Assembly (NCBI RefSeq): GCF_965641715.1
Contig: NZ_OZ282453.1
Length of the DNA: 64,000 nucleotides
Reading direction: 5' to 3' (one strand)
Origin: Escherichia coli
Lineage (GTDB): Bacteria > Pseudomonadota > Gammaproteobacteria > Enterobacterales > Enterobacteriaceae
Under the pieces are notes generated by a model. That model saw only the letters and a program-made list of their open reading frames with translations. It made no database searches and had not been told where the DNA came from. Positions 2,836 through 21,734 of the stretch are shown piece after piece. Both the position numbers and the translations under genes were made by a program. The stretch's first letter is position 1; each line of letters begins with the position of its first letter.

Positions 2836-2862
2836 AACGGAGCCGAAAGGCTCCGTTTCTTT
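2836..2862 (+). terminator. Rho-independent terminator hairpin between convergent fadE and ivy
   Basis: aacggagcc-gaaa-ggctccgtt stem-loop followed by a T-rich run, directly after the fadE stop. Confidence 0.5.
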
Positions 2863-2871
2863 ATCCGCTAA

Positions 2872-3345: not shown

Positions 3346-3498
3346 GTTATTAACCTCCTAAAGCCTGGCGATAACACGATAATTTGCAAATCAGATATTT
3401 CCAATATCAGCATTTGTTATCAATTTATTCTGCGCTAAGGCAACTGCCTGATAAGGTGTTAAAGTTATAAAACCCTTCGCATAAAGGAGTTGTACACC

Positions 3499-5850: not shown

Positions 5851-6620
5851 TCACATCTTACATCTTGCCCCTGCCTTGATTATCTTATCTTTCGTTAAAA
5901 TATTAATAGCGATCTTCCGTATCCCTGAAAATAATTCTGCTGCATTTCCTCTTCTTATTTTGAAGTCGTCTTTATTCATTACCACGTCCAGATGCCAGTG
6001 CAATTTATTCTCCACTTGCCAGTGATTTCGGTTCGCTGTGGCGAACTTCTCTGCGGTTAAATCAGCAGAAATGCTATAATATCTGACCGTCATTTCGGGA
6101 TTTTTCTTTTGTTCTGCTATTATTGAGCGAAATGAGACTGCCATGCATAATTTCTTCAGCCCTTTCCATTCAAACGTAAAATCAATAAATTCATCAGAGA
6201 CATGCAAACAATATGAAGACGGGTTTTAATGACATAAATTGCTCCCTTGTGACGACTTTTATCATAAGAGTGCCGGAGCGTTTTTCCATCAATTGTAATG
6301 ACGTCTTTATCATCTGAAGAATGACAGTCACGCATCCAGTTAATAAAGCACTCATGAAATTTTTCAGGACTGATACAGGATACAACTCTGGCAATGATAT
6401 CGTGAACAGGAATACCATTTTCAAAATCACCATATCACTTCAAAAAATCGGGATGTGTTTCCCCAAATCCTCTATATCTTCCCAGCATTATGCACCAGAA
6501 ATAACGGCGCAAATAGTTAACAGATAGAATATCTGGCAATTTATGTTCCACTTTCCAGGCTTGCCTGTAATCGGGGATAATAGAAATATGTTCCATCAAT
6601 TTTTTAAGTTCCATTTTGCC
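5851..6620 (-). mobile_element. Degenerate ISAs1-family (H-repeat) element: transposase gene with internal deletion and frame disruption
   Basis: Minus strand encodes [18 protein letters not shown] ... [25 protein letters not shown] (N-terminal part, ~6620..6250) joined to the C-terminal part [12 protein letters not shown] ... [37 protein letters not shown] (ORF 5851..6207); the middle of the transposase is missing. Confidence 0.7.
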
Positions 6621-6871: not shown

Positions 6872-8965
6872 TTAACCTCGGCTCACCGTTTTCGATTCCA
6901 TCCAATAAATGACCCGGTTGGATGTGGGCTGATCGCCAACAACTTTGCCATCTGCAGAGATTAGCTTCAGCTCTTTATTAGCCTCATCACCGAAGTAAAT
7001 CATGCGGTAGCGAAAATAACCGCCCCAGGGTTCGCGTCCACCCAGCGAACTTTGCATAAACCAGGCGCGGGAGTCGTGAACCTGGTCATCATAGAGAGCC
7101 AGTAATTCAGCGCAGGGCTGAGTACGCGTTCCCGTTCCCAGTGAATCAATAAAAAATTGTGGATAGAGTCCGTCTCCCATAGCCTTAATTTGCTGATATT
7201 CTTTTGCTTCATCATCGCCATTAATCAGATACACCGGATATTTAGGAATGACATCCACAAGAATCTGAATGGCTTTCTCCATGACGCTGCCGTTAATATC
7301 GCGCGTCCATCCTTTATAATCGCTCTGAAATTCTCGGGCTGCCTCTCGCAACTGATACTGAGCATTGGTTGGGTCAAGGATAGGAATGCCCTGATTACTT
7401 TCATCAAGTGTGCCATTCCCTTTCTGCTTGTTCGCCCGCTCTTTTTCAATATTTTCCATTTGTTCTTTACGCGCTTTAGCCTCTTTATCAAGTCCATCTT
7501 TATCCAGCTGTGGCGCCTTAATATAAAAAGGTTGCACAAGAAGGCTGTTATTCGCATAGCGACCGATACGCCAGGCGGTGATCCAGCCGATCTGATCGCT
7601 AATTGCGCTTTCAAGAACCTGGGCAAGTTGATAGGAGTGATAATCTTCCCTCGTATCAATCATTTCTTCTGTACCCTGCAAGGTGGTGTTCAGCAGCGTT
7701 TGTCGCCAGATGTTGAAGCGTTTTGTTAATGAATTAGCAATCGTAAATTCCTTTACGCTAGAAGGACTCATAATTCGCAGAGGCGACACACCTTTTATTA
7801 ATGGAGTAACAAATTTAGAATAAACAGCAAGTGGTGCTCCTGAATCAAATGCAGCAAGATACATATCATGCAGTGCTATCTGAGAAAGAATTTCGCCTGA
7901 GTCACCACAGGACTTCCCCTGATCGCGAACGGGATAGCCACCACCGACATCAGAGTGCATCCCCGGATAGATAATTTCCTCTGCATTTAAAGGATAATTT
8001 CCGTCTGGACGACGGATTGAATCCAGCGGAAAGCACAGCCGCTGCTCATGCGCGGCAACGAAGTGGCGGCAGCATTTAATCAGGCCGGGAAACTGCCTCT
8101 CATCAGGGAGTTGCTGAGTACTATCGGCCCATCCCATATGACCGGCAGCGCCCGGTAAAACATGCGCCGCCCCCACAGAAGCTACGGTATCCAGCAGCCC
8201 CAAAAACTCAATACTGACAGCTAACCCGGCCAGCATCACCTGTTGCTCCTGCGGGCAAGCTAACTGAGTCAACCAGTTAACAAAAGTTCGTGCTTCCGCT
8301 GCGCCACGGGAAAATCCGTAGATAAACAGCTTTACGTTTAGCAGGCGCGGACTGGCTTGCTCTAACAGTCCCTGTAATTTTTCCAGGTAGGGGTTAATCA
8401 CATTGCGACGATTCACTTCACCAGTCATAGGCCAGGGAGCGCGCATAAGAGGAATGTGCTCTTTTGCCACATTATCATCCAGTCGCTTATGGGAAGGGTC
8501 AATGGAATAGCTCAGGGCATCCACGAGGCGTAATAATGCCCAATTAATTCGATCTTCACCACCAGTAGCGAACTCCAGCCCGCTGTTGCTGTAATCCATT
8601 TCACCTATCTTGGGAAATGGTGTGCCTACACCCGGTATATAGTAGTTAAAATATCCCTGTTCTTCTGCGTTCTGATAGGTCGTATGAAACAGTTTGGCAA
8701 TATTGATTGGGTGTCCAGGAGTGTCATTATATTCATTATTATTTGTACCATCAAAAAACAGACTAATATGCAGACTTTGATTACACGTAAAGCCAATTCT
8801 AAATCCAGCCTGTTTACTACAGTTGGTTTTGTGCTCTTCTGTTTTATTGATTTGTTTTAGGTAGTTCGCGTTTACCTGCGCTTCAGATAATATTAATCGC
8901 CCATTTTCAGGAAACGCTGGGGGGGCATAACACGGAAAAGCCAGACCACTTATTTCGCTGGACAT
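6872..8965 (-). CDS. T6SS phospholipase effector candidate, Tle1-like (DUF2235 alpha/beta hydrolase, 697 aa)
   Basis: GxSxG nucleophile motif in KLFIYGFSRGAAEARTFVNWL; last gene of a vgrG-remnant/DUF4123 cargo module; family assignment from motif and context only. Confidence 0.55.
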   Translation of the reverse strand: MSSEISGLAFPCYAPPAFPENGRLILSEAQVNANYLKQINKTEEHKTNCSKQAGFRIGFTCNQSLHISLFFDGTNNNEYNDTPGHPINIAKLFHTTYQNAEEQGYFNYYIPGVGTPFPKIGEMDYSNSGLEFATGGEDRINWALLRLVDALSYSIDPSHKRLDDNVAKEHIPLMRAPWPMTGEVNRRNVINPYLEKLQGLLEQASPRLLNVKLFIYGFSRGAAEARTFVNWLTQLACPQEQQVMLAGLAVSIEFLGLLDTVASVGAAHVLPGAAGHMGWADSTQQLPDERQFPGLIKCCRHFVAAHEQRLCFPLDSIRRPDGNYPLNAEEIIYPGMHSDVGGGYPVRDQGKSCGDSGEILSQIALHDMYLAAFDSGAPLAVYSKFVTPLIKGVSPLRIMSPSSVKEFTIANSLTKRFNIWRQTLLNTTLQGTEEMIDTREDYHSYQLAQVLESAISDQIGWITAWRIGRYANNSLLVQPFYIKAPQLDKDGLDKEAKARKEQMENIEKERANKQKGNGTLDESNQGIPILDPTNAQYQLREAAREFQSDYKGWTRDINGSVMEKAIQILVDVIPKYPVYLINGDDEAKEYQQIKAMGDGLYPQFFIDSLGTGTRTQPCAELLALYDDQVHDSRAWFMQSSLGGREPWGGYFRYRMIYFGDEANKELKLISADGKVVGDQPTSNRVIYWMESKTVSRG

Positions 8966-9504
8966 GTTGCTGGTTCCTTCATCTCGCGGGGTTCTTTGAT
9001 GGGATAATTCGGTGTGCCATACTTCTGGCAGACGGTTGTCACTTTAATCTGATTACACGTTAGAAAATGAACGGTCAGGCCACAAAGCTCAGCATCGTAT
9101 TCCGGGATATCAACAATTGCGGTATGTTGAATGTAACTTTCTTTTAGTTTTTTCTCCCAGGCCTGATATTTATCCCAATCCTTATAGAGTGGTGGCGGAG
9201 GTACTGTATTTGGGGTAATTTCCCATTCAACCTGGGCTTTTAATCCAGAATGCCACTTATCTGGCAGCATAACGCAACAATATCCTCCACCGTCTCCGAA
9301 TGGACCAATATTTGGTCCGCCGTAACCATTGATGTGTATATAATTTATATCCTTATCCGTATGATTTATCCCATTAATATCCACAGCAGTGTAATCACCG
9401 CTATTTTTTGCCATTGAACAGCCTGATACTGCAAATAAAATCATTAGAGAATAACATTTGAAAATCGTTCTCATACTGATACTTTTCCTTATTTTGCTGG
9501 ACAT
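8950..9504 (-). CDS. Small lipoprotein, candidate Tle immunity protein (Tli-like)
   Basis: Lipobox-type signal peptide MRTIFKCYSLMILFAVSGC if translation starts at ATG 9474 (ORF track start 9504); 16 nt overlap with the start of the Tle1-like gene. Confidence 0.45.
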   Translation of the reverse strand: MSSKIRKSISMRTIFKCYSLMILFAVSGCSMAKNSGDYTAVDINGINHTDKDINYIHINGYGGPNIGPFGDGGGYCCVMLPDKWHSGLKAQVEWEITPNTVPPPPLYKDWDKYQAWEKKLKESYIQHTAIVDIPEYDAELCGLTVHFLTCNQIKVTTVCQKYGTPNYPIKEPREMKEPATCPAK

Positions 9505-9817
9505 GTTGCTGGTTCTTTTACTTTGAGAGATTTTAATTGATGGGTATTGTTTCTACGACAATAAAGTTTTGACAAAGAAGCAAATAAAATGCATATCTTT
9601 CGATTGTCACACATTGGAATATCGACAGAGCATTGATGATATTACGCAAAATATATTGCAGCCAAGTGAACTGACATTACGATCGAACACAAATGCAACA
9701 TGATGGATACTACCATTACATGTCGAGCTTGATTTTCCGTTTATTTCACGATTATCTCTTGATATTAACAGCTACGGACTTTTAAACAGATAAATCTCCC
9801 CGTACATCACCACAATA

Positions 9818-10588
9818 TTATCCTTCGAAGTCCCGCAAAGCTCCGAAATATTTCGCGTCATTGGCTCTGAAAGCAATATCAAGACAGTGGGCAAAATAGC
9901 TTTCCTGACTGAGTTCACTGACTGCTTTCTCCTTCATCAGGACTTCAGCGTCGCAGATACAGCCCATCAATCCCACCTGTACATCATCCACCCGATTCAT
10001 CTCCGGGTTGTCAGTAAGCCTGCGTTCTGGTGAAAAACTTCCTGATTTCCAGTTAATCTCACCATCACGGTCTAACCAGCTCCAGAACAACGCAATATCA
10101 GTAAATGTCGCCTGCTGCTCGTTAGTCAAAACATGTGTGAACAGTAAAGGGAACACCCGATTATCATAGTAACGCAGCAATCCGGTCTGTTCTTCCCACT
10201 GAACCTGTGACAATACCTGAAGATGCCGCCCCAGCAGGTCGAATGTAAGAGGGGATATCAACAAAGTAAGACGCGGCGTATCAGCAAATGACGCCATCAG
10301 TTGTGCCAGAAATTTGCGATGGCTACTGAGCGCAAAGTACAGGCGTAACACTACAGGGGAATACTCCATCGTCTCAGCTTCAGGCGTTCCTTCAAACAGG
10401 GCATACCAGTGAATGGCTGGCCACAGATGAAGTATCTCATTTTGCAAAGGTTGGTCGGTTCCAGCCTGGTCAACAAGCACATCTATGTAATCCAAACCAG
10501 CGGCAGAACAGAATGATTCAGCCTGCTTCAGCCAGATAATATATTTGTCTTGATCGGTAGCGCGTGGCGATACTGTTATCATCGTCAT
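9818..10588 (-). CDS. DUF4123-family T6SS effector adaptor/chaperone (Tap/Tec-like)
   Basis: 256 aa; N-terminal YIDVLVDQAG and central LLRYYDNRVFPLL resemble the DUF4123 signature segments (compare YAIVDGA / LMRFYDPRNIWVL in ORF 18198..19040); immediately follows a vgrG tail. Confidence 0.55.
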   Translation of the reverse strand: MTMITVSPRATDQDKYIIWLKQAESFCSAAGLDYIDVLVDQAGTDQPLQNEILHLWPAIHWYALFEGTPEAETMEYSPVVLRLYFALSSHRKFLAQLMASFADTPRLTLLISPLTFDLLGRHLQVLSQVQWEEQTGLLRYYDNRVFPLLFTHVLTNEQQATFTDIALFWSWLDRDGEINWKSGSFSPERRLTDNPEMNRVDDVQVGLMGCICDAEVLMKEKAVSELSQESYFAHCLDIAFRANDAKYFGALRDFEG

Positions 10589-10594
10589 TCTCCC

Positions 10595-11051
10595 TTATCC
10601 ACGAGGCGCAAAAGCGGCGGCGGCTTCCTGCGCCCTTTTCAGGCACTCCTTACACACCGATTTTTCTGGCGCTTCCTCACCCTCATCGTTGTTATCATTC
10701 TGATCGGACGATGCATTACTATCATTTTGCTCAGCCGCTAAACTTTTATCATCTGCCAGCGCTTTCAGAACCGCCGGTTGCAGCGTCGGCACCGGCGTTC
10801 CCGGACTACCGCCGCTATTGAGATTGATTTTCGGCCCGACGATGTCCACGCCCCCTGAATGGATGACCACAAACGAACCGCCCACCTTCAGGCTTATCCG
10901 GCTGCTGCTCTCCAGCACCACATCGCCCTCCACCTTTAACCACGCCACCGCAGTCAATGGCATCACCGGTTCTGGCGGTAGGTTTATCGTCGATAAAGGC
11001 GGAAGAGGTGTTTCCGGCTCTTAAGAAATATTTACGCACATGCACCAGCAT
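10595..11051 (-). pseudogene. Remnant fusing the 3' end of a PAAR gene to the 3' tail of a vgrG gene (internal deletion)
   Basis: One frame encodes FIDDKPTARTGDAIDCGGVV (PAAR C-terminus, compare PAAR 15133..15417); the adjacent frame encodes LKVEGDVVLESSSRISLKVGGSFVVIHSGGVDIVGPKINLNSGG (VgrG tail, compare vgrG2) followed by an acidic linker. Confidence 0.6.
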
Positions 11052-11082
11052 TACAGAAAATAAAACCTGCGATACATTTTAA

Positions 11083-11859
11083 TCAATAAGGTTGCTTTAC
11101 CAAGCTTCCATCGATATTGATGGAAAATTCATTAGACCTAATATGAACAGAATGTTGCTCATCATCTTTATCTAATATTTGATTAACAAAAAAAAACGTA
11201 TTTTTATCAAATTCATAATTATCACATCCCTCTCCACTAAATGATATAGCTCTAAAATCATATTCATTACATGAGTATCTTTTCATCAAAATAGAGAGGA
11301 ATGTTTCATTAATTGATTTTAATACAAACCATTTTCTCCTAACAAGTTTGTAGTTTAATGTTTTTATATGATAATTATTTAAACTGGGGAGAAATGAATG
11401 CATATCATTCAATTTTACATCAAAAGATATTTTTTTACCTGCCGTAATTTCCACCCATCGGCTCAAATTCAAATCAAGCTCAAAGGGACAAAAGCCTCCT
11501 AGATAGTCTAAGCTAATATTTCCTGATGTAATCAAGAATTCGTCATCACACAAAGCATCAAATACATCTCCATTTCCTTTTTGGAAGTTCTTTGGATAAT
11601 ATATTCTGGGGAGAAAATACGATTTAGTACTACTGTTATAAAAAGTTATAGTAGCTAAAATATTTTCAGCATGTGGCTTAACCACCAATTTAACAACAAC
11701 ATCATTTGTTAATTCATTACTTATATTTTCCTCTGGCGCTAAATTATGGCTAAGATAAATAATTGGTTTCCCATTGTCACTTCTTCGTTCAAAACCGAAT
11801 CTGTATTTTTTTACAAAAAGATTCTCATTATCTATTGCAATTGCAATAGATAATGGCAA
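11083..11859 (-). CDS. Hypothetical protein, candidate immunity protein for the upstream metallopeptidase-like effector; N-terminal signal peptide is out of frame
   Basis: Body ORF starts at TTG 11859; a 31-codon ORF from ATG 11923 (one nt after the effector stop) encodes MKRLAFYNLNYVVLMVFFSLFFAIIYCNCNR in the other frame; the two frames would join if one base were removed from the homopolymer tract. Confidence 0.45.
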   Translation of the reverse strand: MPLSIAIAIDNENLFVKKYRFGFERRSDNGKPIIYLSHNLAPEENISNELTNDVVVKLVVKPHAENILATITFYNSSTKSYFLPRIYYPKNFQKGNGDVFDALCDDEFLITSGNISLDYLGGFCPFELDLNLSRWVEITAGKKISFDVKLNDMHSFLPSLNNYHIKTLNYKLVRRKWFVLKSINETFLSILMKRYSCNEYDFRAISFSGEGCDNYEFDKNTFFFVNQILDKDDEQHSVHIRSNEFSINIDGSLVKQPY

Positions 11860-11924
11860 AAAACAAAGAAAAAAAAACCATCAGTACAACATAATTTAGA
11901 TTATAGAAAGCCAACCTCTTCATC

Positions 11925-12728
11925 TTATTTCCCCGTCAACTCATCAAAACATTTTTCTATCTCTTTTATTTTATCCTCTACTTTTTTTGCTAACATATTC
12001 TCATCTTGAGCTTCAATATCTTCATCATTTAATTTTATATAAAAATATCTTTCAACATTATATGCATTCTCAAATAACTGATCTTTACGCAATGTAACCA
12101 GATCATTAGCCACTGAAACATGTTTCTCATAGCTAACTTCATCCTTATTACTTGTTGCGAACTTATTAATACCCGTATAATCCTGAGTCCACATACCACC
12201 TTTTTGATTGTCACCCCAATACCAAAATATATGGGACATTTCATGGCAAAGTGTACTTACATGAGAGTCTCTACCTGTAACCGACTGTTTTATACCATGT
12301 CTGTATTCAAAATGCGCTCCGATATTTACAATGTAAGGAGGATCAAGATGTGGACTAATAAAAGCAGCAAATTCATTGCAGTTCGTATAATCTTTATAGC
12401 TTTCGATCGTCAAACCATTTGCAATCGTCATTATTCGTCTGATGCCATCCATTATGAATAGTCTCGCTTGCATTCGTTTCCCAGTATCTTCCCCAACTTT
12501 TCTGATTTTTATAATGTCCTCGCCTTTAAGGCCAAAAACTTTAATAAAATCTCGTTGTTGTTCCCCCTCCCATGACATAATATCATCTGCTCTTTTCAAT
12601 AAAACCATTTTCTGTGCTTTACAAGCCTTACTCATCATTATTTTAAATTTATTTGTAATTTTTTGCGGTACTACACATACTTGCGACTCGGGTTGTGAAG
12701 TCCCACTAGTATTATTATTCCCTGCCAT
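11925..12728 (-). CDS. HExxH zinc-metallopeptidase-like T6SS effector candidate (268 aa)
   Basis: HEMSH motif followed by WTQDYTG (loosely aspzincin-like); start ATG at 12728 (MAGNNNTSG) overlaps the vgrG2 stop; the longer ORF 11925..13103 is not used because it overlaps vgrG2. Confidence 0.55.
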   Translation of the reverse strand: MAGNNNTSGTSQPESQVCVVPQKITNKFKIMMSKACKAQKMVLLKRADDIMSWEGEQQRDFIKVFGLKGEDIIKIRKVGEDTGKRMQARLFIMDGIRRIMTIANGLTIESYKDYTNCNEFAAFISPHLDPPYIVNIGAHFEYRHGIKQSVTGRDSHVSTLCHEMSHIFWYWGDNQKGGMWTQDYTGINKFATSNKDEVSYEKHVSVANDLVTLRKDQLFENAYNVERYFYIKLNDEDIEAQDENMLAKKVEDKIKEIEKCFDELTGK

Positions 12729-15114
12729 AATGCCCCTCCGGCTCAATATAAAAAGCATCCGAAAATAACAATTGGACTTTAATTTCCTGTGCTGTATCTG
12801 TATAAAATATTTCTGTATATCCCTCTCTGTCTGTTTCACCACGCGTCTGTGTGCCATCCTCAAAAAAGGCAATATACTGCGTCTCTGAATACGGTATCCC
12901 GTCATCGTCCGTAAAATGGAACTGGAGGGTATATTTTTCAGGATCATCTTCATCGTCACCGCCATCACCTCCTCCGTCACTCCCTGCGGGATTGCCACTA
13001 TCCTCTCCGGAGTCATCACTGCCATCATCACTGCTCTCATCCTCCGGAGCCTCCAGCACCGCCGGCTGCATCGTCCCCACCGGTGTCCCCGCACTGCCCC
13101 CACCGTTCAGGTTTATCTTCGGCCCGGCAATATCCACTCCGCCCGGCTGAATGACGATAAACGAGCCACCCACCTTCAGGCTTATCCGGCTGCTGCTCTC
13201 CAGCACGATATCCCCGTCCACTTTTATCCCCAGCGCGCCACTCACCTTCTCCGCCAGGTCCCCCTTCACCTCCAGGCTGTGCTTCCCCTCCACCAGGCTG
13301 ATGTGGTTACCCGTCGTCTTATGCTCCTGCTTCCCTTTCACCGTCACCCTACGGTCATTTCTGACGTACAGACCGTCATCGTGACTCACGCTCACCGTCC
13401 GGTCATTTGTCACCTTCAGCGTCTGGTCGTTACGTACCGTTATGCTCCGGTCGTTCGCCACCGTGATACTCTGGTCGTGGCCTCCTTCTTTTCTGGTCCC
13501 GACCTCAACCGTCTGCCCCTTCACCACCGTTATCTTCTGGTCGTTACCAATGGTCTCCGTATGGTCATGTTTCACATCCGTTGTCCGGTCGTTGAGCACC
13601 TCCGTATCCATGTTCTTCTGCGCATGGATATACACCTGCTCATTACTGGTGGCGTCCTCAAAGCGCAACTCGTTAAATCCGCTTCCTTTATAGGTCTTCG
13701 ACCGTATCGTCATCTGCGTCTTCGTCCCCGGCAGGCTCCCCGGCGAACGGTTGTCCTCATGGTACGTCCGGCCCATGACCAGCGGCTGGTCCGGGTCTCC
13801 GTTCAGGAAGTCAACAATCACCTCCTGACCCACCCGCGGTATCGCCAGGTTACCAAACCCCGGCCCCGCCCACGCCTGTGATACCCGCACCCAGCATGAA
13901 CTCGCCTCCGTCATCCCGTGATAACGGTCCCAGTGGAACTTCACCCGTACCCGGCCATGTTCGTCGCAGAATATCTCCTCACCCTTCGGCCCGGTGACAA
14001 TGGCGCTCTGCGGCCCGTCCACCTTCGGTTTGCTTTGCAGCCGTGGACGCCACGTCCGGTCCGCCGGTATCACCTCTAACTGATTTCCCAGCGTGGTTCC
14101 TCTCCCCTGGCTGCCGTGCAGCGCCTGCGGCTGGCTTCCTGACAGTATGCTCTGTACCACCTGCCATTCACGGTTCAGCATCTTCTGCGGATGCCCCGTC
14201 AGCGTAAACCGCGTTCCCGGCCACAGCCTCGGCGAATTACTCTGCCCTGTGGCCTTTTCCGCATCACTGCGCAGGCTCTCCATCTGGTACAGCGTGAAAT
14301 CCTTGCCGTGCTGCTCATCCTTGAACCTTCCCGGATAATCAAATATCTCGTACTGCGCCAGCTGTCCGTTCAGGTTCTCACCCTGCTGCTCATACATCCC
14401 CGGCCAGTCCGGCACCTTAAACGTGTAATCCTGGCTCTGCACCGACGACGGGCGGACATGCGCCTCATAACGGAACATACTGAGACACTCCGTCTCCGCT
14501 CCTGCCGATGTGTCCGGGTTAAACGGAAGCTCTCCCGCCTGTGACAGCCCCGCCACATCGTCGCACAGCGTCAGCTTCTGCTCCGGACTGTCCGCCGCAA
14601 ACCGCTCAAAGAAGAAAATTCCTTCTTCCGCCCACAGCCGAGCCAGAAACGCCAGGTCGCTCTCCCCGTACTGGACACAGAACTCCCGCGCCGGATGGTC
14701 TTCATAAAACAGCGGAGTCCACTCCGTGACGCCGTTCTCGTTCAGTAACGTGGCCGATATCGTCCGGATATCCTGCTGCTGAAAAATACGAAAGTTCTGC
14801 CGCAGCCCGCACCGCCATAACGGCGGCTCAATACGCAGGTGATAACGCATCTGCCAGCCGTTGTTCTCCTGCATGCCAAAGCCCGCCACCACGCCGGTGA
14901 CATAACGCTGCGCCACCGCGCCCTGCCAGATGGCCAGCGTCGCCTTCTTCTCCAGCAGCATCTCCGCCGTCTGCATAAAAGAGTCGCTGGCAACATCCAC
15001 ACTCATCACAAACGGATAAGACTGGTTCTGGATTAACCTGAAATTCACCACTGCAAAGGTGTCCGGCTCCTGGCCGTCAATCTCCAGCGTAAAGCGCAGA
15101 CCGTTTAAGGACAT
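12715..15114 (-). CDS. vgrG: VgrG spike protein with C-terminal extension (799 aa)
   Basis: N-terminal 480 aa identical to the vgrG at 19037..20995; gp27/gp5-like repeats (VKGDLAEKVSG..., ISLKVGGSF...); acidic D/E/G/S linker and an extra ~60 aa C-terminal domain. Confidence 0.9.
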   Translation of the reverse strand: MSLNGLRFTLEIDGQEPDTFAVVNFRLIQNQSYPFVMSVDVASDSFMQTAEMLLEKKATLAIWQGAVAQRYVTGVVAGFGMQENNGWQMRYHLRIEPPLWRCGLRQNFRIFQQQDIRTISATLLNENGVTEWTPLFYEDHPAREFCVQYGESDLAFLARLWAEEGIFFFERFAADSPEQKLTLCDDVAGLSQAGELPFNPDTSAGAETECLSMFRYEAHVRPSSVQSQDYTFKVPDWPGMYEQQGENLNGQLAQYEIFDYPGRFKDEQHGKDFTLYQMESLRSDAEKATGQSNSPRLWPGTRFTLTGHPQKMLNREWQVVQSILSGSQPQALHGSQGRGTTLGNQLEVIPADRTWRPRLQSKPKVDGPQSAIVTGPKGEEIFCDEHGRVRVKFHWDRYHGMTEASSCWVRVSQAWAGPGFGNLAIPRVGQEVIVDFLNGDPDQPLVMGRTYHEDNRSPGSLPGTKTQMTIRSKTYKGSGFNELRFEDATSNEQVYIHAQKNMDTEVLNDRTTDVKHDHTETIGNDQKITVVKGQTVEVGTRKEGGHDQSITVANDRSITVRNDQTLKVTNDRTVSVSHDDGLYVRNDRRVTVKGKQEHKTTGNHISLVEGKHSLEVKGDLAEKVSGALGIKVDGDIVLESSSRISLKVGGSFIVIQPGGVDIAGPKINLNGGGSAGTPVGTMQPAVLEAPEDESSDDGSDDSGEDSGNPAGSDGGGDGGDDEDDPEKYTLQFHFTDDDGIPYSETQYIAFFEDGTQTRGETDREGYTEIFYTDTAQEIKVQLLFSDAFYIEPEGHYGRE

Positions 15115-15132
15115 AAATACCTCTCAGACATA

Positions 15133-15417
15133 TCAGCCTATATTTACCGTACCGCCACCAATGACCACACCACCACAGTCGATGGCATCACCGGTTCTGG
15201 CGGCGGGCAGGCCGTCAATAAAGACGGTTGAAGAACCTCTGGCGATTTTACGGGGATGAGGTGGATGCTTCGGTTTAGCATGCGGCGTCAGCGGATCTCC
15301 CTGGCGAGCAGCAGGTAATCCATCAATAAATACCGTGGATGAAGCCGCAATGATGACTGTCTCACGGTAGCCATCATGCTGAGTACCTTTGTCGTTTAAT
15401 CTGGCAGCTAAAGGCAT
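15133..15417 (-). CDS. PAAR-domain spike tip protein (94 aa)
   Basis: Duplicated SSTVFIDGLPAAR(Q/T)GD motifs and C-terminal AIDCGGVVIGGG; located directly upstream of vgrG2. Confidence 0.8.
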   Translation of the reverse strand: MPLAARLNDKGTQHDGYRETVIIAASSTVFIDGLPAARQGDPLTPHAKPKHPPHPRKIARGSSTVFIDGLPAARTGDAIDCGGVVIGGGTVNIG

Positions 15418-15527
15418 AATTCCTCCTGTTCAGAATATCAGCGACAAAAAATTTAAAAAACGGTAAGGTGCTTAACTCAGCAATAATCACCTTACCGGAC
15501 ATCCTGATTTGTAGCCCAACAGGTTAA

Positions 15528-16538
15528 TCAAGTAACAGGGATAAACTGACCATCAATCAGCGAAAATACCGGAGCGTAATACCCCATACGCTCTTCACCA
15601 CTTTCATCTGTAAAACGGTAAGTCAGTGGGGAATACGTTGGCATTGATTTATTATATAATTGCACCATACGCCCATTATTCATAACCCGGACGGCATAAT
15701 CGTTCCACCTGATAGGCAGTATTTTGGCTTTTCCACCCTCAAGGTTATCTTTCGGAAAGTGGGAGAGTAATATGTCATCCTCAGAGTCACCGGTTGTGGC
15801 TGACCATGCCTTCAGCGCCTCTGTGTTATATAACTTAAGACGTGCTCTGTCCCCGCTGTTAATAATTGTTGCCATTTCGGTATAGGTGGCTTTTAACTTC
15901 CGTAGCTGCTCGTCGCTTCCGGTATAGGGGGTTGCCCGCGTCCAGGCCCATTCAGGAAGCCCCGTCACCGTGACTTTTTGTGTAAACTGATACACCTTCA
16001 TCCCTTTCGGAAAATAGGTTTCATCAAAATAATCTGGATCTATAAATCCTGGCTCCGCCTGCTCTGCCAGGATCTCTTTCCTGATAACGGGATGCACGCT
16101 GTCTGACCGGGCTTCAGGTATGCCCTGCTGGTTGATGGTCACTTTTATCGAAGAAAGCAGGGTTTCTTCCTGTTTAATAAAACGAACCAAATCCAGGCTG
16201 CACCCTGCTTTTTGGAAAAAACGCCCCCGTTCTTCCGTACTGGCAGGCTTGTCAGAAAACCATCCTAACGCCCCGATTTCCAGACTGATTTCATTTTCTC
16301 CATTCGCCATCAGCATCATGGCATTGGTGCTGGATATGGCCCCGGTGGAATCACCATTCTCTCGCCATGCGTTCATTCGGTTACTGAAGCCGAGGACACC
16401 GTTGGTTTTGATGGCACAATATGATTCCTCAATATTAAACTTACTGCGGATTTTTTGTGGATTTTCACCCGAGTACAATCCTGCTCCCATAATACCTCCT
16501 GACAGTAAAATAACCGATATTAAATGTTTTACCTTCAT
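15528..16538 (-). CDS. Secreted hypothetical protein (336 aa), candidate immunity protein for the 523 aa effector
   Basis: N-terminal signal/anchor MKVKHLISVILLSGGIMGAGLYSG; immediately downstream of the effector candidate. Confidence 0.45.
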   Translation of the reverse strand: MKVKHLISVILLSGGIMGAGLYSGENPQKIRSKFNIEESYCAIKTNGVLGFSNRMNAWRENGDSTGAISSTNAMMLMANGENEISLEIGALGWFSDKPASTEERGRFFQKAGCSLDLVRFIKQEETLLSSIKVTINQQGIPEARSDSVHPVIRKEILAEQAEPGFIDPDYFDETYFPKGMKVYQFTQKVTVTGLPEWAWTRATPYTGSDEQLRKLKATYTEMATIINSGDRARLKLYNTEALKAWSATTGDSEDDILLSHFPKDNLEGGKAKILPIRWNDYAVRVMNNGRMVQLYNKSMPTYSPLTYRFTDESGEERMGYYAPVFSLIDGQFIPVT

Positions 16539-16604
16539 AATTATTTTCTCTTAAAAGGAAAAGACTCTCATTATATTGAGTGATTTTAATTGCTGTAATA
16601 TCAC

Positions 16605-18176
16605 TTAATAATCCATGCCTATTGTCCACGTTGTCACTGGCTTCGGCGGTATTACTTTTTTCTCTACCGTGCGTTCTTTACCGTATAAATTAACCCGCAA
16701 TGGTGAATCTTTTATCTCCATAGGATCACATAACTGCCACTCAACGGTATCTTTCTTCTCGGGTTTCTCACTCTTTTCTTTCCCCTTTCCCTTCCCTTTA
16801 CTTTCACCATAAGATACATCCGCCTTAAATTCGAACTTTCCTTTAATGCCGTCATGAAATAATGCCAGGTCCAGTCCGTCATCATGTGAATCGAATCCAA
16901 AGCCAGCTTTCGCCTCTATAGAAGCGGTCGCTTCTGCGGTCAGTTGTACAACAAAAACATTCGCCTCAAACGTCGCACTCACCACACCTTTTAAACCGAG
17001 CTTGATGTTACTTTCCTTTACATTAAACTCCCATTTTTTATCCTTTTCAGCGTATACTGCGCCAAGATCAAGATTAATCTCCGCTGAAATCTCGATATAG
17101 CATTCAACACTGGCTCCGTTTTTACGGAGATATTCACGACATCTGTTGACCAATGACTCGACTTTACAGTATGCACATATAAATGAAATAATATCGAATC
17201 TGAACGACGCTTCAAAAAATGGGGCACCAAACAAACCATAAAAATGACAGGGGCCATCCTGGATATCGGTATATTGATAGGCATACGATATACCCAGTTT
17301 AACGGGTTCTATTTTTGCACTGAACAATGCATATTTGCGCGTACCATTATTATTGTCAGGATCTGGCGCAAAATATTTATTGACATTCTTGACCAGAGAG
17401 TCAATTCTTCCTATCTGTTCCAGTTGCTTTGTTTGTCGAAGTTTTTTTATCTCTTTTTCATATTCACTTGTGTGTTCAACATTAGCTATTTTTACGCCAA
17501 AATCGACAGTCAGGGAAGTCTTGTTTATCCACTCAAACTCAGCAGTGGTATTTGTCCAGCCGCTACGGAGTTTATTTTTATCCCTGGGCTTGGTGTTCTC
17601 CATTGCGTCCCTGGCTTTTATTCTTTCGTCACGCCGCTCTTTTACTGTTCGCGTCTGTTTTGATGACGAAATCTCATAGCTGAACCCTGTAGTAAACCTA
17701 ATTTCCATTGTAGGATAAACATCAATTTCAACATAATTGCCACATTCGTAACAACTGTCAATTCTGACTGAATAATGGGCAGGTTCATAATGATTCTTAA
17801 GTGGAGAGGATATTGCCCCCAAATAATCCCATGGTACGCGAAATGTACCCATAGCAATTATTTCACCTTCAGACAAGTTATCATCCAAAGTGACCTTATT
17901 AGGTATTCCGAAAGGTTGCAGTATCTTATGATTATTTTCTGATTCTTCCTCTAACCATGCCTCATGTGTTCCACTTTTATCGCACTGGTAGGTAATGGTA
18001 ATTATACCATCACATCCGGAACCATCATCCAGTAGCTTAAAACGCGCCACTCCTTCTTTTGACCAGAAATGTTTCTCGCCGGCCTCTGGAAAATCACTAA
18101 TAACATCAAAAATACATGGATCAGGTATGCCGCATTCCACACAGGGCTTTCCGGCTGTCGAAGATGGAGATGTCAT
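16605..18176 (-). CDS. Unassigned T6SS effector candidate (523 aa), DUF4123-adaptor dependent
   Basis: Follows vgrG1 and a DUF4123 adaptor; no catalytic motif recognised; lysine-rich low-complexity stretch (KGKGKGKEKSEKPEKK) near the C-terminus. Confidence 0.5.
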   Translation of the reverse strand: MTSPSSTAGKPCVECGIPDPCIFDVISDFPEAGEKHFWSKEGVARFKLLDDGSGCDGIITITYQCDKSGTHEAWLEEESENNHKILQPFGIPNKVTLDDNLSEGEIIAMGTFRVPWDYLGAISSPLKNHYEPAHYSVRIDSCYECGNYVEIDVYPTMEIRFTTGFSYEISSSKQTRTVKERRDERIKARDAMENTKPRDKNKLRSGWTNTTAEFEWINKTSLTVDFGVKIANVEHTSEYEKEIKKLRQTKQLEQIGRIDSLVKNVNKYFAPDPDNNNGTRKYALFSAKIEPVKLGISYAYQYTDIQDGPCHFYGLFGAPFFEASFRFDIISFICAYCKVESLVNRCREYLRKNGASVECYIEISAEINLDLGAVYAEKDKKWEFNVKESNIKLGLKGVVSATFEANVFVVQLTAEATASIEAKAGFGFDSHDDGLDLALFHDGIKGKFEFKADVSYGESKGKGKGKEKSEKPEKKDTVEWQLCDPMEIKDSPLRVNLYGKERTVEKKVIPPKPVTTWTIGMDY

Positions 18177-18197
18177 ATAATCTATCCGTTTGTCTTT

Positions 18198-19040
18198 TTA
18201 TTGCGGGATAAATCCCAGTTCCTGTTGTGCAAGTTCATGTACCCGAATATGTCCCGGGTATGACTGATTGCTGAGTTGTTCATACCAGTCATCCGGAATA
18301 TATCTGAGATCGATTATATTTTTTTTCAGTAATATAAGCGTCATTGTTCTGACGGAACGATCATCTGCTATATTTAATGACTGGCAAAAAGAGAAATAAT
18401 CTTCTGCCAGAATTCGGGATGATTCAGCTTTTGATAAATCATCCCATCCGTCTTTATCTACATTTTCTTCGATAAATGCAGATAATATATCAAGATAATT
18501 ATCCCGTGCCTTTCGTTCCAGTTGGCTATATTGTCTGTAACTCAGCGTCAGTTGTGATGGCCGTTCTGCCCTTATATTCATAGTTTCTGCGGGACGGACG
18601 GAAGAAAAATTATCCTCACGACATTCTTCACCATAGCGGGTACTTAGCTGTCTGACGGGGCTGATAAAAGAAAGAAGCTGGCGGGGGGTCAGAACTTCCG
18701 CTAATACCCATATATTCCGGGGATCATAAAATCGCATGAGAACAGGTTTCTCCTGTTCGGGGATCATAACCCACAGATAACGTCTGAAGTGTTGCTGTAG
18801 CTCACGTATGGATGACTCAGAAGTAAGATATATTCCCCACGGCGACGCCTTATCACTCAGCCATGCTTCAACTTCCGGAACAACCTCCACGAGATAAGGG
18901 GCCAGCGCGACCAGATCCGGTTGTATGGGTTCTGCATACAGACAACAGTGCGGGGGATTCACCTCGTTCAGAAAATCCAGCAATCCTTCCTCCACAGCGC
19001 CATCCACAATGGCGTACTGCACGGGTGCCGTTTCCATCAC
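18198..19040 (-). CDS. DUF4123-family T6SS effector adaptor/chaperone
   Basis: YAIVDGA near the N-terminus and LMRFYDPRNIWVL in the middle; 4 nt overlap with the vgrG1 stop. Confidence 0.65.
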   Translation of the reverse strand: MMETAPVQYAIVDGAVEEGLLDFLNEVNPPHCCLYAEPIQPDLVALAPYLVEVVPEVEAWLSDKASPWGIYLTSESSIRELQQHFRRYLWVMIPEQEKPVLMRFYDPRNIWVLAEVLTPRQLLSFISPVRQLSTRYGEECREDNFSSVRPAETMNIRAERPSQLTLSYRQYSQLERKARDNYLDILSAFIEENVDKDGWDDLSKAESSRILAEDYFSFCQSLNIADDRSVRTMTLILLKKNIIDLRYIPDDWYEQLSNQSYPGHIRVHELAQQELGFIPQ

Positions 19041-20995
19041 TTATCCTCCTTCGGACAATGCGACACGAACATCGAACCACTTCCGGCTGCGGCTTTCAGG
19101 ATCACCGGGCGCATCGGCAGGATCACATCCCCCGGACTGCCCCCGCCGTTAAGATTGATTTTCGCGCCCTTAATATCCACGCCGCCGGAATGGATCACCA
19201 CAAATGAACCGCCCACCCGCAGACTGATTTTGCTGTCGCTCTGTAAAACAATATCGCCCTGTACGCTGATACCCAGCGCGCCGCTTATTTTCTGTGCCAG
19301 ATCGCCTTTCACCTCCAGTCCCTGATTGCCCTCTGTCAGGCTGACGTGGTCTTTGGTGGTTTTATGGTCCTGTTTACCTTCAACCGTCACTTTCCGGTCA
19401 TTTGCCACCACCAGGGATTCATCATGCCCGATGCTGACCGTCCGGTCATAGTTGACCCGCTTATCCTTGCTGTTCAGCACAACGACCTGCATATTTTTCT
19501 GTGCGTGCAGATAAATTTCTTCCTTGTCCGTGGCGTCCTCAAACCGCAGTTCGTTAAATCCGCTTCCTTTATAGGTCTTTGACCGTATCGTCATCTGCGT
19601 CTTCGTCCCCGGCAGACTCCCCGGCGAACGGTTGTCCTCATGGTATGTCCGGCCCATGATTATCGGCTGGTCCGGGTCTCCGTTCAGGAAGTCAACAATC
19701 ACCTCCTGACCCACCCGCGGTATCGCCAGGTTACCGAACCCCGGCCCCGCCCACGCCTGCGATACCCGCACCCAGCATGAACTCGCCTCCGTCATCCCGT
19801 GATAACGGTCCCAGTGGAACTTCACCCGTACCCGGCCATGTTCGTCGCAGAATATCTCCTCACCCTTCGGCCCGGTCACAATGGCACTCTGCGGCCCGTC
19901 CACCTTCGGTTTGCTTTGCAGCCGTGGACGCCACGTCCGGTCTGCCGGTATCACCTCTAACTGATTTCCCAGCGTGGTTCCCCTCCCCTGGCTGCCGTGC
20001 AGCGCCTGCGGCTGGCTTCCTGACAGTATGCTCTGTACCACCTGCCATTCACGGTTCAGCATCTTCTGCGGATGCCCCGTCAGCGTAAACCGCGTTCCCG
20101 GCCACAGCCTCGGCGAATTACTCTGCCCTGTGGCCTTTTCCGCATCACTGCGCAGGCTCTCCATCTGGTACAGCGTGAAATCCTTGCCGTGCTGCTCATC
20201 CTTGAACCTTCCCGGATAATCAAATATCTCATACTGCGCCAGCTGTCCGTTCAGGTTCTCACCCTGCTGCTCATACATCCCCGGCCAGTCCGGCACCTTA
20301 AACGTGTAATCCTGGCTCTGCACCGACGACGGGCGGACATACGCCTCATAACGGAACATACTGACACACTCTGTCTCCGCTCCTGCCGATGTGTCCGGGT
20401 TAAACGGAAGCTCTCCCGCCTGTGACAGCCCCGCCACATCGTCGCACAGCGTCAGCTTCTGCTCCGGACTGTCCGCCGCAAACCGCTCAAAGAAGAAAAT
20501 TCCCTCCTCCGCCCACAGCCGCGCCAGAAACGCCAGGTCCGACTCCCCGTACTGCACACAGAACTCCCGCGCCGGATGGTCCTCATAAAACAGCGGCGTC
20601 CACTCCGTGACGCCGTTCTCGTTCAGTAACGTGGCCGATATCGTCCGGATATCCTGCTGCTGGAAGATACGGAAGTTCTGCCGCAGCCCGCACCGCCATA
20701 ACGGCGGCTCAATACGCAGGTGATAACGCATCTGCCAGCCATTGTTCTCCTGCATACCAAAACCCGCCACCACGCCGGTGACATAACGCTGCGCCACCGC
20801 GCCCTGCCAGATGGTCAGCGTCGCCTTCTTCTCCAGCAGCATCTCCGCCGTCTGCATAAAAGAGTCGCTGGCAACATCCACACTCATCACAAACGGATAT
20901 GACTGGTTCTGGATTAACCTGAAATTCACCACTGCAAAGGTGTCCGGCTCCTGGCCGTCAATCTCCAGCGTAAAGCGCAGACCGTTTAAGGACAT
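19037..20995 (-). CDS. vgrG: VgrG spike protein (652 aa, no C-terminal extension)
   Basis: Full-length VgrG architecture; first ~480 aa identical to vgrG2, diverging in the C-terminal third. Confidence 0.9.
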   Translation of the reverse strand: MSLNGLRFTLEIDGQEPDTFAVVNFRLIQNQSYPFVMSVDVASDSFMQTAEMLLEKKATLTIWQGAVAQRYVTGVVAGFGMQENNGWQMRYHLRIEPPLWRCGLRQNFRIFQQQDIRTISATLLNENGVTEWTPLFYEDHPAREFCVQYGESDLAFLARLWAEEGIFFFERFAADSPEQKLTLCDDVAGLSQAGELPFNPDTSAGAETECVSMFRYEAYVRPSSVQSQDYTFKVPDWPGMYEQQGENLNGQLAQYEIFDYPGRFKDEQHGKDFTLYQMESLRSDAEKATGQSNSPRLWPGTRFTLTGHPQKMLNREWQVVQSILSGSQPQALHGSQGRGTTLGNQLEVIPADRTWRPRLQSKPKVDGPQSAIVTGPKGEEIFCDEHGRVRVKFHWDRYHGMTEASSCWVRVSQAWAGPGFGNLAIPRVGQEVIVDFLNGDPDQPIIMGRTYHEDNRSPGSLPGTKTQMTIRSKTYKGSGFNELRFEDATDKEEIYLHAQKNMQVVVLNSKDKRVNYDRTVSIGHDESLVVANDRKVTVEGKQDHKTTKDHVSLTEGNQGLEVKGDLAQKISGALGISVQGDIVLQSDSKISLRVGGSFVVIHSGGVDIKGAKINLNGGGSPGDVILPMRPVILKAAAGSGSMFVSHCPKEDK

Positions 20996-21215
20996 AATGA
21001 CCTCCCTGATTTATTCACGGACCAAATGATTCTCACCATGCAGCAAAGGGTGCCAGTGCAGCGTTACACTCATCTTTACATTTTCAGGTACGCTACCGCC
21101 CGGGTTTCCGGCATCCGCCATCTCCCTCATGAAAGCGTAACTCCTTACTGACACTCATTTTTTACACGTACAAAAACAACATCCTGCACGAAGGCAGGAT
21201 GTTGTTGACTCAGAT

Positions 21216-21734
21216 TTATGCTTCCAGCGGTGCACGCCAGTCATCGGCACCAGAAGTACCGGATTTGATGTGCTCCCACTCAACCTTACGGTATGCCAGT
21301 GATACTGCGAGCAATTGCGTAAACTCACGCTGTGCAGGGTCCTGGCAGTGCGGCATGTGCAGGTTCATGTCCACAATCGTCGCGTCAGTAAGACGTGTGG
21401 TGAAGTAGTGCTCCTGCTTGCCTTCAACTGAAGTACGCCACCAGTGCAGCTCCACTTTCGGCAGCATTTCACCGGAGGCCAGCGCGTTGTACAGCAGCGG
21501 AACGGCTTTGTTCAGCGCCACGGTGAAAATGAACGGTTTGTGCGCGCGCTGCCCGGAAGGTTGACCAGACTGTGGATCGGTTGGAACAGTAACGTTATGC
21601 AGAAACTCCTGCACCAGCATTTCATCTTCGTGTCCCTGCACGTAGATATTGCCGACAGAATCTGCGGTGAAAGCACCGGCAGTGATGTTCCCCTGGGTCT
21701 GACCTGTAATTGAAATGTAACATGGGGTTGGCAT
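21216..21734 (-). CDS. hcp: Hcp tube protein (172 aa)
   Basis: Hcp family sequence (MPTPCYISITGQTQGNITAGAFT...); first gene of the minus-strand hcp-vgrG cargo operon. Confidence 0.88.
   Translation of the reverse strand: MPTPCYISITGQTQGNITAGAFTADSVGNIYVQGHEDEMLVQEFLHNVTVPTDPQSGQPSGQRAHKPFIFTVALNKAVPLLYNALASGEMLPKVELHWWRTSVEGKQEHYFTTRLTDATIVDMNLHMPHCQDPAQREFTQLLAVSLAYRKVEWEHIKSGTSGADDWRAPLEA

What the first reader, a model, noticed from the sequence alone, without database searches (positions are those of the whole stretch)
15133..15417. PAAR protein with an internal duplication of the SSTVFIDGLPAAR motif
The 94 aa PAAR protein contains SSTVFIDGLPAARQGD and SSTVFIDGLPAARTGD about 35 residues apart, and a third partial copy of the same segment survives in the remnant at 10960..11030. 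The repeated DNA could have mediated the deletion that created the remnant.
Basis: seen in the sequence. Interest (0 to 1): 0.3.

Follow-up and report, generated by a model that had tools for sequence, protein, structure and literature searches.

The report
Ordinary T6SS PAAR spike-tip gene
This is a standard E. coli type VI secretion "PAAR" spike-tip protein, and the repeated motif is the normal internal repeat of that protein family; it is not a fresh duplication and did not cause the nearby gene remnant.

Summary
The ORF at 15133..15417 (-) encodes a 94-aa PAAR protein. It matches Pfam PF05488 and NCBIfam NF033420 above their cut-offs and is 92% identical to the crystallised E. coli c1882 PAAR (PDB 4JIW), which has the same two SSTVFIDGLPAAR segments. 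Together with PLAAR at residues 2-6, these make the family's three PAAR motifs. In 68 homologues of 94 aa the two segments share 6-15 of 16 residues, most often 12-13.

At the DNA level the two copies are 31/48 identical. Only 3 of 16 third positions agree and the longest exact run is 8 nt. That is no more alike than random synonymous encodings of the same peptide.

The remnant is also real. 10927..11018 matches codons 59-89 of a different, diverged PAAR allele (79-87% identity). It is joined out of frame to the last 115 codons of a Tle1-type vgrG (10595..10941, 97% identical to an intact gene). Both junctions lie outside the 48-nt motif, and the vgrG junction is a 2-nt microhomology. The same scar occurs in 12 of 5,426 complete E. 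coli genomes. Already known; low interest.

The parts
15133..15417 (-). PAAR gene: 94 aa, the stand-alone tip protein of the T6SS spike. It lies 18 nt upstream of vgrG2.
   Evidence: PF05488 E=1.3e-20, 73.8 bits against a cut-off of 27. NF033420 157.4 bits against a cut-off of 124, covering 1-94/94. 4JIW_D E=2.3e-54. AF2 model pLDDT 94.9, and Foldseek to 4jiw_D gives TM 0.97 and rmsd 0.6 A.
15400..15414 (-). PAAR motif 1 (P2-L-A-A-R6)
   Evidence: Read directly from the translation. A4 is conserved in at least 90% of 34 homologues.
15295..15342 (-). Repeat copy 1, SSTVFIDGLPAARQGD (residues 26-41). It contains PAAR motif 2 at 15304..15315.
   Evidence: R38 is invariant in 34 homologues.
15187..15234 (-). 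Repeat copy 2, SSTVFIDGLPAARTGD (residues 62-77). It contains PAAR motif 3 at 15196..15207.
   Evidence: A73 and R74 are invariant in 34 homologues.
12715..15114 (-). vgrG2 (799 aa), the spike protein that this PAAR most likely caps.
   Evidence: Phage_GPD, Gp5_trimer_C and Phage_base_V domains. RefSeq calls the homologue a 'type VI secretion system Vgr family protein'.
11925..12728 (-). M35-like metallopeptidase, the candidate effector of the PAAR-vgrG2 module. It contains an HExxH motif.
   Evidence: Weak Pfam Aspzincin_M35 hit, E=8e-4. RefSeq annotates the homologue as 'peptidase M35'. ATG start confirmed.
11083..11859 (-). Putative immunity gene of the M35 module.
   Evidence: Assigned by position only. 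No family hit and no relatives in the scan of species-representative genomes.
10927..11018 (-). PAAR fragment of the remnant: codons 59-89 of a diverged PAAR allele. It contains SSAFIDDKPTARTGD at 10962..11006.
   Evidence: nhmmer E=1e-22. 60-65/76 nt identical to four PAAR alleles. Ungapped protein match to PAAR residues 59-88.
10595..10941 (-). 3' fragment of a Tle1-type vgrG: the last ~115 codons plus the stop. It is out of frame with the PAAR fragment.
   Evidence: Window 10400..10941 is 96.9% identical to the intact vgrG-tla1 locus of strain EC28, and the homology stops at 10941. RefSeq annotates the equivalent as a vgrG pseudogene 'missing N-terminus'.
10936..10939 (-). Junction between the PAAR fragment and the vgrG fragment. 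The crossover falls in the shared TA at 10938-10937.
   Evidence: The last PAAR-specific base is 10939 and the first vgrG-specific base is 10936, judged against 4 PAAR and 4 vgrG alleles.

Best explanation
The ORF at 15133..15417 (-) is an ordinary stand-alone PAAR protein. PAAR proteins form the small cone that caps the blunt end of the VgrG trimer of a type VI secretion spike. This one heads a PAAR-vgrG2-M35 peptidase-immunity module in the E. coli T6SS-1 island between yafV and tRNA-Asp.

The two SSTVFIDGLPAAR segments, together with the N-terminal PLAAR, are the three PAAR motifs of the fold. From my knowledge of the 4JIV/4JIW structures, one motif contributes to each third of a pseudo-threefold cone, so each third can pack against one chain of the trimeric VgrG tip. 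The near-identity of the two segments is kept by selection on the protein. It does not come from a recent DNA duplication or from gene conversion.

The remnant at 10595..11018 is a recombination scar. It joins codons 59-85 of another PAAR allele, at a 2-nt microhomology and out of frame, to the last 115 codons of the Tle1-type vgrG that originally followed hcp in this island. By inference, the scar formed when the M35 module displaced the 5' part of that resident vgrG. The module most likely came from a tandem array in which each module starts with a PAAR gene. The repeated motif played no part in either junction.
For: Identity of the gene:
- PF05488 scores 73.8 bits against a cut-off of 27. 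NF033420 scores 157.4 bits against 124 over the full length.
- 86 of 93 aligned residues are identical to 4JIW chain D, which carries the same two segments.
- The AF2 model has pLDDT 94.9 and superposes on 4jiw_D with TM 0.97 and rmsd 0.6 A. The next hits are 4jiv_D and the phage tip proteins 9f4b, 4ku0 and 6p1z.
- vgrG2 starts 18 nt downstream.

The repeat is family-wide:
- 68 homologues of 94 aa share 6-15 of 16 residues between the two segments, most often 12-13.

No DNA-level repeat:
- The copies are 31/48 identical, agree at 3/16 third positions, and have a longest exact run of 8 nt.
- Other E. coli alleles give 34-36/48.
- Random synonymous encodings give 33.2 +/- 2.5 identities over 45 nt against 31 observed, and 5.2 identical codons against 3 observed.

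The remnant:
- The only PAAR homology is 10927..11018. Nothing matches the PAAR 5' part or its upstream region.
- It matches the copy-2 region and not the copy-1 region.
- It is only 79-87% identical to any PAAR allele examined.
- The vgrG part is 96.9% identical to the intact EC28 gene, and the homology stops at 10941.
- The crossover is pinned to 10938-10937.
- The scar is at least 99% identical in 12 of 5,426 genomes.
- EC28 shows the arrangement hcp-vgrG-tla1-tli1-tle1 with no PAAR gene.
- Tandem modules headed by PAAR occur in NC101, A16 and E7-1N7.
Against: Nothing found argues against the identification of the PAAR gene.

The history of the scar is less certain:
- The upstream junction, between the immunity-gene flank and PAAR codon 59, has no identifiable parent. 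The 64 nt between them occur only in the same 12 genomes.
- The immunity gene has no relatives in the species-representative genome scan.
- The order and number of events therefore cannot be resolved. One possibility is that the donor already carried the PAAR fragment. The other is a ~1.9-kb deletion inside a resident PAAR-vgrG pair plus a second event.
- No donor allele closer than 87.5% identity was found.
- Binding of this PAAR to VgrG2 is inferred from gene adjacency and from the structure of the homologue. It was not tested.
Confidence: 0.93

Rival explanations
1. The two SSTVFIDGLPAAR segments come from a recent internal duplication, or are homogenised by gene conversion, specific to this gene.
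For: The segments share 15/16 residues, which is the top of the range seen in homologues.
Against: Only 3 of 16 third codon positions agree and the longest exact run is 8 nt. The DNA identity is slightly below that of random synonymous encodings of the same peptide. The same pair of segments is in 4JIW from strain CFT073, and related pairs occur across Enterobacterales, Aeromonas, Vibrio and Photobacterium. The repeat is therefore as old as the family.
Confidence: 0.02
2. Recombination or slippage between the repeated motif DNA produced the deletion that made the remnant.
For: The PAAR fragment starts only about 9 nt upstream of the copy-2 equivalent.
Against: A copy 1 x copy 2 deletion would leave the PAAR 5' end and its upstream region in front of a single motif. 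No such homology exists upstream of 11018: the local alignment score equals the mean of shuffled sequences, and nhmmer finds one hit only. The other junction is at PAAR codon 85/86, about 50 nt past the motif, and joins to vgrG at a TA dinucleotide. Eight nucleotides of exact identity is far below the roughly 20-30 nt that RecA-dependent recombination needs in E. coli (from my knowledge). The fragment is only 79% identical to the resident gene, so it did not derive from it.
Confidence: 0.03
3. The remnant arose inside a resident PAAR-vgrG(Tle1-type) pair. A single ~1.94-kb deletion ran from PAAR codon 86 to vgrG codon 630, and a separate event removed PAAR codons 1-58. The alternative is that the PAAR fragment arrived with the incoming M35 module.
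For: The order PAAR followed by vgrG, and its orientation, are preserved in the scar. PAAR-vgrG pairs with an 18-nt spacer are the normal unit.
Against: The intact Tle1-type vgrG examined (EC28) follows hcp directly and has no PAAR gene in front. No PAAR-vgrG(Tle1-type) pair was seen, but the other ~53 genomes with an intact gene were not inspected.
Confidence: 0.3

Closest known systems
c1882 PAAR-repeat protein of E. coli CFT073 (PDB 4JIW; Shneider et al. 2013, Nature 500:350, cited from memory and via PMC4632598 and PMC6730261)
   Same: Same length and the same family. 86 of 93 aligned residues are identical, including both SSTVFIDGLPAAR segments. The predicted fold superposes at 0.6 A. The E. 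coli homologues inspected (NC101, A16, E7-1N7, PapRG-04-4) likewise sit directly upstream of a vgrG.
   Different: Seven substitutions: K6R, T8N, Y18R, T23I, G25A, E40G and D47A (4JIW residue, window position, window residue). The gene sits in the main T6SS-1 island at yafV/aspV. The homologues inspected in NC101, A16 and E7-1N7 lie in a PAAR-headed orphan array next to yddH. The 5' 114 nt come from a different allele.
VCA0105 PAAR of Vibrio cholerae (PDB 4JIV) and phage tip proteins such as T4 gp5.4 (4KU0)
   Same: Same cone fold, with TM 0.95 for 4jiv_D and 0.85 for 4ku0_D, and the same three-motif layout.
   Different: 60% and 28% sequence identity respectively. Their two internal segments are less alike: in 4JIV, SATVRYDGIPAARLGD versus SGTVMIDGKPAARVGD share 10/16 residues.
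Displaced 3' fragments of vgrG in E. coli vgrG islands (VT modules; Ma et al. 2018, cited via PMC6730261), which resemble orphan rhs and cdiA C-terminal modules
   Same: A 3' piece of the former resident spike gene is left downstream of a newly acquired effector/immunity module. Its own adaptor, immunity and effector genes (tla1-tli1-tle1) remain intact. A similar vgrG 3' fragment is seen in strain RMDEC465.
   Different: Here the scar also carries 92 nt of a PAAR gene, joined at a 2-nt microhomology. This implies that at least one junction was illegitimate rather than homologous.

Membership tests
PAAR-repeat protein (Pfam PF05488 / NCBIfam NF033420, T6SS spike tip) | Profile match above the curated cut-offs | tested here: met
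   PF05488 73.8 bits against 27. NF033420 157.4 bits against 124, covering 1-94 of 94.
PAAR-repeat protein (Pfam PF05488 / NCBIfam NF033420, T6SS spike tip) | Three PAAR (Pro-Ala-Ala-Arg-like) motifs per domain | tested here: met
   PLAAR at residues 2-6, PAAR at 35-38 and PAAR at 71-74. R38, A73 and R74 are invariant, and A4, A37, P71 and A72 are conserved in at least 90% of 34 homologues.
PAAR-repeat protein (Pfam PF05488 / NCBIfam NF033420, T6SS spike tip) | Conical all-beta fold like 4JIV/4JIW | tested here: met
   AF2 model pLDDT 94.9 and pTM 0.85. Foldseek gives 4jiw_D TM 0.97 and rmsd 0.6 A, and 4jiv_D TM 0.95.
PAAR-repeat protein (Pfam PF05488 / NCBIfam NF033420, T6SS spike tip) | Conserved His/Cys metal site near the apex of the cone | tested here: inconclusive
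   H54 and C81 are invariant, and H14, H46 and H51 are conserved in at least 90% of 34 homologues. H14, H46 and C81 sit 7-8 residues after the Arg of motifs 1, 2 and 3. Which of these residues bind zinc comes from my memory of the structure paper, and the geometry was not checked.
PAAR-repeat protein (Pfam PF05488 / NCBIfam NF033420, T6SS spike tip) | Encoded next to vgrG and other T6SS genes | tested here: met
   vgrG2 starts 18 nt downstream. hcp, a second vgrG and the tss core genes are in the same island.
PAAR-repeat protein (Pfam PF05488 / NCBIfam NF033420, T6SS spike tip) | Binds the VgrG beta-helix tip and is needed for secretion | not testable with these tools
   Needs biochemistry or genetics. 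Inferred from 92% identity to a protein crystallised on a VgrG-like beta-helix.
Recent intragenic DNA duplication or recombinogenic direct repeat | Nucleotide identity between copies above what the shared peptide requires, with exact runs long enough for recombination | tested here: not met
   31/48 nt identical, 3/16 third positions identical, longest run 8 nt. Below the mean of random synonymous encodings. The repeat finder reports only a 36-nt pair at 72% identity.
Pseudogene / recombination scar (the remnant at 10595..11018) | Truncated at both ends relative to intact genes, and the parts are out of frame | tested here: met
   Only PAAR codons 59-89 are present. Only the last ~115 vgrG codons are present. 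The reading frames differ (ORFs 10815..11051 and 10595..10966). RefSeq marks the vgrG part as a pseudogene.

The most novel reading that the evidence does not exclude
The PAAR-vgrG scar may record a single capture event. In that event an M35 effector module from a tandem array of PAAR-headed modules was spliced into the main T6SS-1 locus: by homologous exchange in the conserved 5' part of vgrG on one side, and by a 2-nt-microhomology illegitimate join on the other. If so, such composite scars could be used as markers to reconstruct how E. coli shuffles its T6SS weapon modules. Nothing suggests a new molecular function for the PAAR protein itself.
Probability: 0.3. Interest if true: 0.2.

Novelty: already known. 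Interest (0 to 1): 0.07.

Why it matters
It matters little. The protein is a near-copy of one whose crystal structure was published in 2013, and the repeat is the feature the family is named after. The only modest value is in the remnant. It shows that effector-module turnover in the E. coli T6SS-1 island involves illegitimate joins as well as homologous exchange. It also shows that the Tle1 module in this strain has lost its own vgrG, which raises the practical question of which spike now carries Tle1.

Tried and rejected
- I looked for homology between the DNA upstream of the PAAR fragment (11003..11100) and the PAAR 5' half or its upstream region. The local alignment score of 16 equals the shuffled mean of 15.7. 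An nhmmer profile of five loci found only the one 3' hit. A tentative protein-level extension (HVRKYFLRAGNTSS versus HPRKI---ARGSS) needs a gap and cannot be told from chance.
- I scanned species-representative genomes for relatives of the M35-module immunity protein, hoping to see what normally follows it. No relative was found.
- I searched E. coli genomes for another context of the 64 nt between the immunity gene and the PAAR fragment. It occurs only in the same 12 genomes.
- I considered selection for dissimilar synonymous codons between the copies. Three identical codons are observed against 5.2 expected (P=0.18), and other alleles share 5-9 of 16 third positions. This gives no support.
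- I tried to read Shneider et al. 2013 (PMC3792578). It is not held, so the structural statements rest on the PDB matches, two reviews and my memory.
- The promoter and terminator scan of 10500..15700 gave nothing above the shuffled expectation that bears on the finding.

Full report
WHAT IS THERE

The window is E. coli chromosome. The metNIQ-rcsF segment is 100% identical to many E. coli genomes. It carries fadE, ivy and yafV at 307..4269. It also carries a ribosomal RNA operon at 51837..56937 and two tRNA-Asp genes. Between yafV and the tRNA-Asp at 43483..43559 lies a type VI secretion (T6SS-1) island.

The tss core genes run on the + strand from about 22.4 kb. The order of genes on the - strand is:
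- hcp at 21216..21734
- vgrG1 at 19037..20995
- a DUF4123-like adaptor at 18198..19040
- ORFs of 523 aa and 336 aa with no family assignment
- the PAAR gene at 15133..15417
- vgrG2 at 12715..15114
- an M35-like peptidase at 11925..12728
- a putative immunity gene at 11083..11859
- the remnant at 10595..11018
- tla1 (DUF4123) at 9818..10588, tli1 (DUF3304) at 8950..9504 and tle1 at 6872..8965

CHECK OF THE OBSERVATION

SSTVFIDGLPAARQGD is residues 26-41 (15295..15342). SSTVFIDGLPAARTGD is residues 62-77 (15187..15234). They share 15 of 16 residues and lie 36 residues apart. The remnant contains SSAFIDDKPTARTGD at 10962..11006 on the - strand. A profile of five PAAR loci hits 10927..11018 with E=1e-22.

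WHAT THE GENE IS

The protein matches Pfam PAAR_motif at 73.8 bits against a cut-off of 27. It matches the NCBIfam equivalog 'type VI secretion system PAAR protein' over its whole length at 157.4 bits against a cut-off of 124. Against the PDB, 86 of 93 aligned residues are identical to 4JIW chain D. That chain is the E. coli c1882 PAAR-repeat protein crystallised on a VgrG-like beta-helix, and it contains the same two SSTVFIDGLPAAR segments.

An AlphaFold model built from 34 homologues has pLDDT 94.9. It superposes on 4jiw_D with TM 0.97 and rmsd 0.6 A. The next matches are 4jiv_D and the phage tip proteins 9f4b, 4ku0 and 6p1z. Reviews describe PAAR as a conical protein, encoded in vgrG operons, that caps and sharpens the VgrG spike (PMC6730261, PMC4632598). 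vgrG2 starts 18 nt after the PAAR stop codon, behind a GAGAGG ribosome-binding site.

IS THE REPEAT UNUSUAL?

No. With PLAAR at residues 2-6, the two segments supply the three PAAR motifs the family is named for. The residues after each motif line up as AARLNDKGTQH, AARQGDPLTPH and AARTGDAIDC. This places H14, H46 and C81, which are all at least 90% conserved, at equivalent positions. That fits a pseudo-threefold cone with an apical metal site. The ligand assignment is from my memory and was not tested.

Among 68 homologues of exactly 94 aa, the two segments share 6-15 of 16 residues, most often 12-13. These homologues come from Enterobacterales, Photobacterium and unnamed metagenome sequences; longer relatives occur in Aeromonas and Vibrio. 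The value of 15/16 is the top of an ordinary distribution.

At the DNA level the copies are 31/48 identical. Identity is 13/16 at first, 15/16 at second and 3/16 at third codon positions, and the longest exact run is 8 nt. The repeat finder sees only a 36-nt pair at 72% identity. Three other E. coli alleles give 34-36/48. I drew random synonymous encodings of the shared 15 residues, using codon usage from genes in this window. They gave 33.2 +/- 2.5 identical nucleotides of 45 against 31 observed, and 5.2 identical codons against 3 observed. All of the DNA similarity is therefore accounted for by the shared peptide. There is no sign of recent duplication or gene conversion, and no substrate for homologous recombination.

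THE REMNANT

Two homologies meet in the remnant.

- The vgrG part. Window 10400..10941 is 96.9% identical to strain EC28, where an intact 744-aa vgrG precedes tla1. The match stops at 10941.
- The PAAR part. 10927..11018 matches PAAR codons 59-89 without gaps. It is 60-65/76 nt identical to four alleles in the copy-2 register. In the copy-1 register the figure is only 31-34/76.

A base-by-base comparison with four PAAR and four vgrG alleles locates the junction. The last PAAR-specific base is 10939 and the first vgrG-specific base is 10936. The crossover is therefore the shared TA at 10938-10937, which corresponds to PAAR codon 85/86 and vgrG codon 630. It lies inside a 15-nt patch (GG.TA..GGTGG) where the two parents happen to be similar. 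The two parts are out of frame, in ORFs 10815..11051 and 10595..10966.

Upstream of 11018 there is no detectable PAAR sequence. The 64 nt up to the immunity-gene stop codon occur only in the genomes that carry the whole scar. Both junctions are outside the 48-nt motif. One lies about 9 nt before the copy-2 equivalent and the other about 50 nt after it. The fragment is only 79% identical to the resident PAAR gene and at most 87.5% identical to any allele seen. It is therefore not a piece of this gene.

The scar is at least 99% identical in 12 of 5,426 complete E. coli genomes. That points to one old event that has been inherited or transferred as a block. In strain 23CRST031 the block follows hcp directly. 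In PapRG-04-4 it sits among IS elements.

LIKELY HISTORY (INFERENCE)

EC28 shows the plain arrangement hcp-vgrG-tla1-tli1-tle1, with no PAAR gene. Strains NC101, A16 and E7-1N7 carry arrays in which each module starts with a PAAR gene. vgrG2 and the Tle1-type vgrG are 92% identical over their first 2.1 kb.

The simplest reading is that an M35 module from such an array replaced the 5' part of the resident vgrG. The exchange was homologous on the left and an illegitimate TA join on the right. A piece of the next PAAR gene came along with the module. A rival reading is a ~1.94-kb deletion inside a resident PAAR-vgrG pair plus a second truncation. It cannot be excluded, because I did not survey all the intact Tle1-type loci.

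Truncation of PAAR genes at arbitrary points is seen elsewhere. E. coli 042 keeps only the first 36 nt of this same PAAR gene after its module-1 immunity gene. ISAs1-related DNA follows.

VERDICT

The gene is a textbook PAAR spike-tip protein. The 'duplication' is the family's defining internal repeat. The DNA copies are no more alike than chance allows for the shared peptide. The remnant is a genuine PAAR-vgrG recombination scar, but it was made at sites outside the repeat and from a different allele. Already known; interest 0.07.

Noticed in passing
window 11826..11855: A perfect 30-nt palindrome (CATTATCTATTGCAATTGCAATAGATAATG) lies at the 5' end of the putative M35-module immunity ORF. It encodes ...SIAIAIDN... 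and is also picked up as a terminator-like stem.
   Followed up: no
window 15133..15417 compared with L003, L005 and L008: The PAAR gene is an allelic mosaic. Compared with common E. coli alleles, nt 1-114 are ~77% identical, nt 115-233 are 97-99%, nt 234-267 are ~80% and nt 268-285 are 100%. The switches fall at the ends of the two conserved motif segments, as expected if allelic crossovers occur in the best-conserved DNA.
   Followed up: partly
L007 (E. coli 042) 5948..6158 compared with window 15330..15540: EAEC 042 and many other genomes keep the upstream region and only the first 36 nt of this same PAAR gene after the module-1 immunity gene. ISAs1-related DNA follows. This is a second, independent PAAR truncation, again not at the repeat.
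   Followed up: partly
window 15528..19040 (-): Module 1 downstream of vgrG1 has three ORFs. The first is a DUF4123-like adaptor (18198..19040; weak Tla1 hit at 36.8 bits against a cut-off of 200). The others are a 523-aa ORF (16605..18176) and a 336-aa ORF (15528..16538) with no Pfam or NCBIfam family. At least 80% of this stretch is present in 322 of 5,426 complete E. coli genomes, and EAEC 042 carries it too. These look like an uncharacterised effector/immunity pair.
   Followed up: no
window 6872..21734: Three spike-and-effector modules are stacked behind one hcp: vgrG1 with the unknown effector, PAAR-vgrG2-M35, and the vgrG-less tla1-tli1-tle1. No complete E. coli genome in the collection has this exact stack or the junction between the intact PAAR gene and module 1. 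Only one intact PAAR gene exists in the 64-kb window. The Tle1 module has lost its cognate vgrG apart from 115 codons.
   Followed up: partly
window 12715..13060 (-): vgrG2 carries a C-terminal extension after the gp5-like beta-helix. It consists of an acidic Asp/Glu/Ser/Gly-rich linker followed by about 70 residues (YTLQFHFTDDDGIPYSETQYIAFFEDGTQ...). The M35 gene start overlaps the vgrG2 stop by 14 nt. From my knowledge, this looks like the kind of C-terminal domain that VgrGs use to hold a cognate effector. It was not tested.
   Followed up: no
window 43483..43559 and 51706..56937: The island boundary is a tRNA-Asp gene. A second tRNA-Asp follows a complete rRNA operon (16S, tRNA-Ile, tRNA-Ala, 23S, 5S). 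The StyR-44 Rfam hit at 54957..55065 lies in the rRNA spacer. This is ordinary chromosomal context.
   Followed up: no
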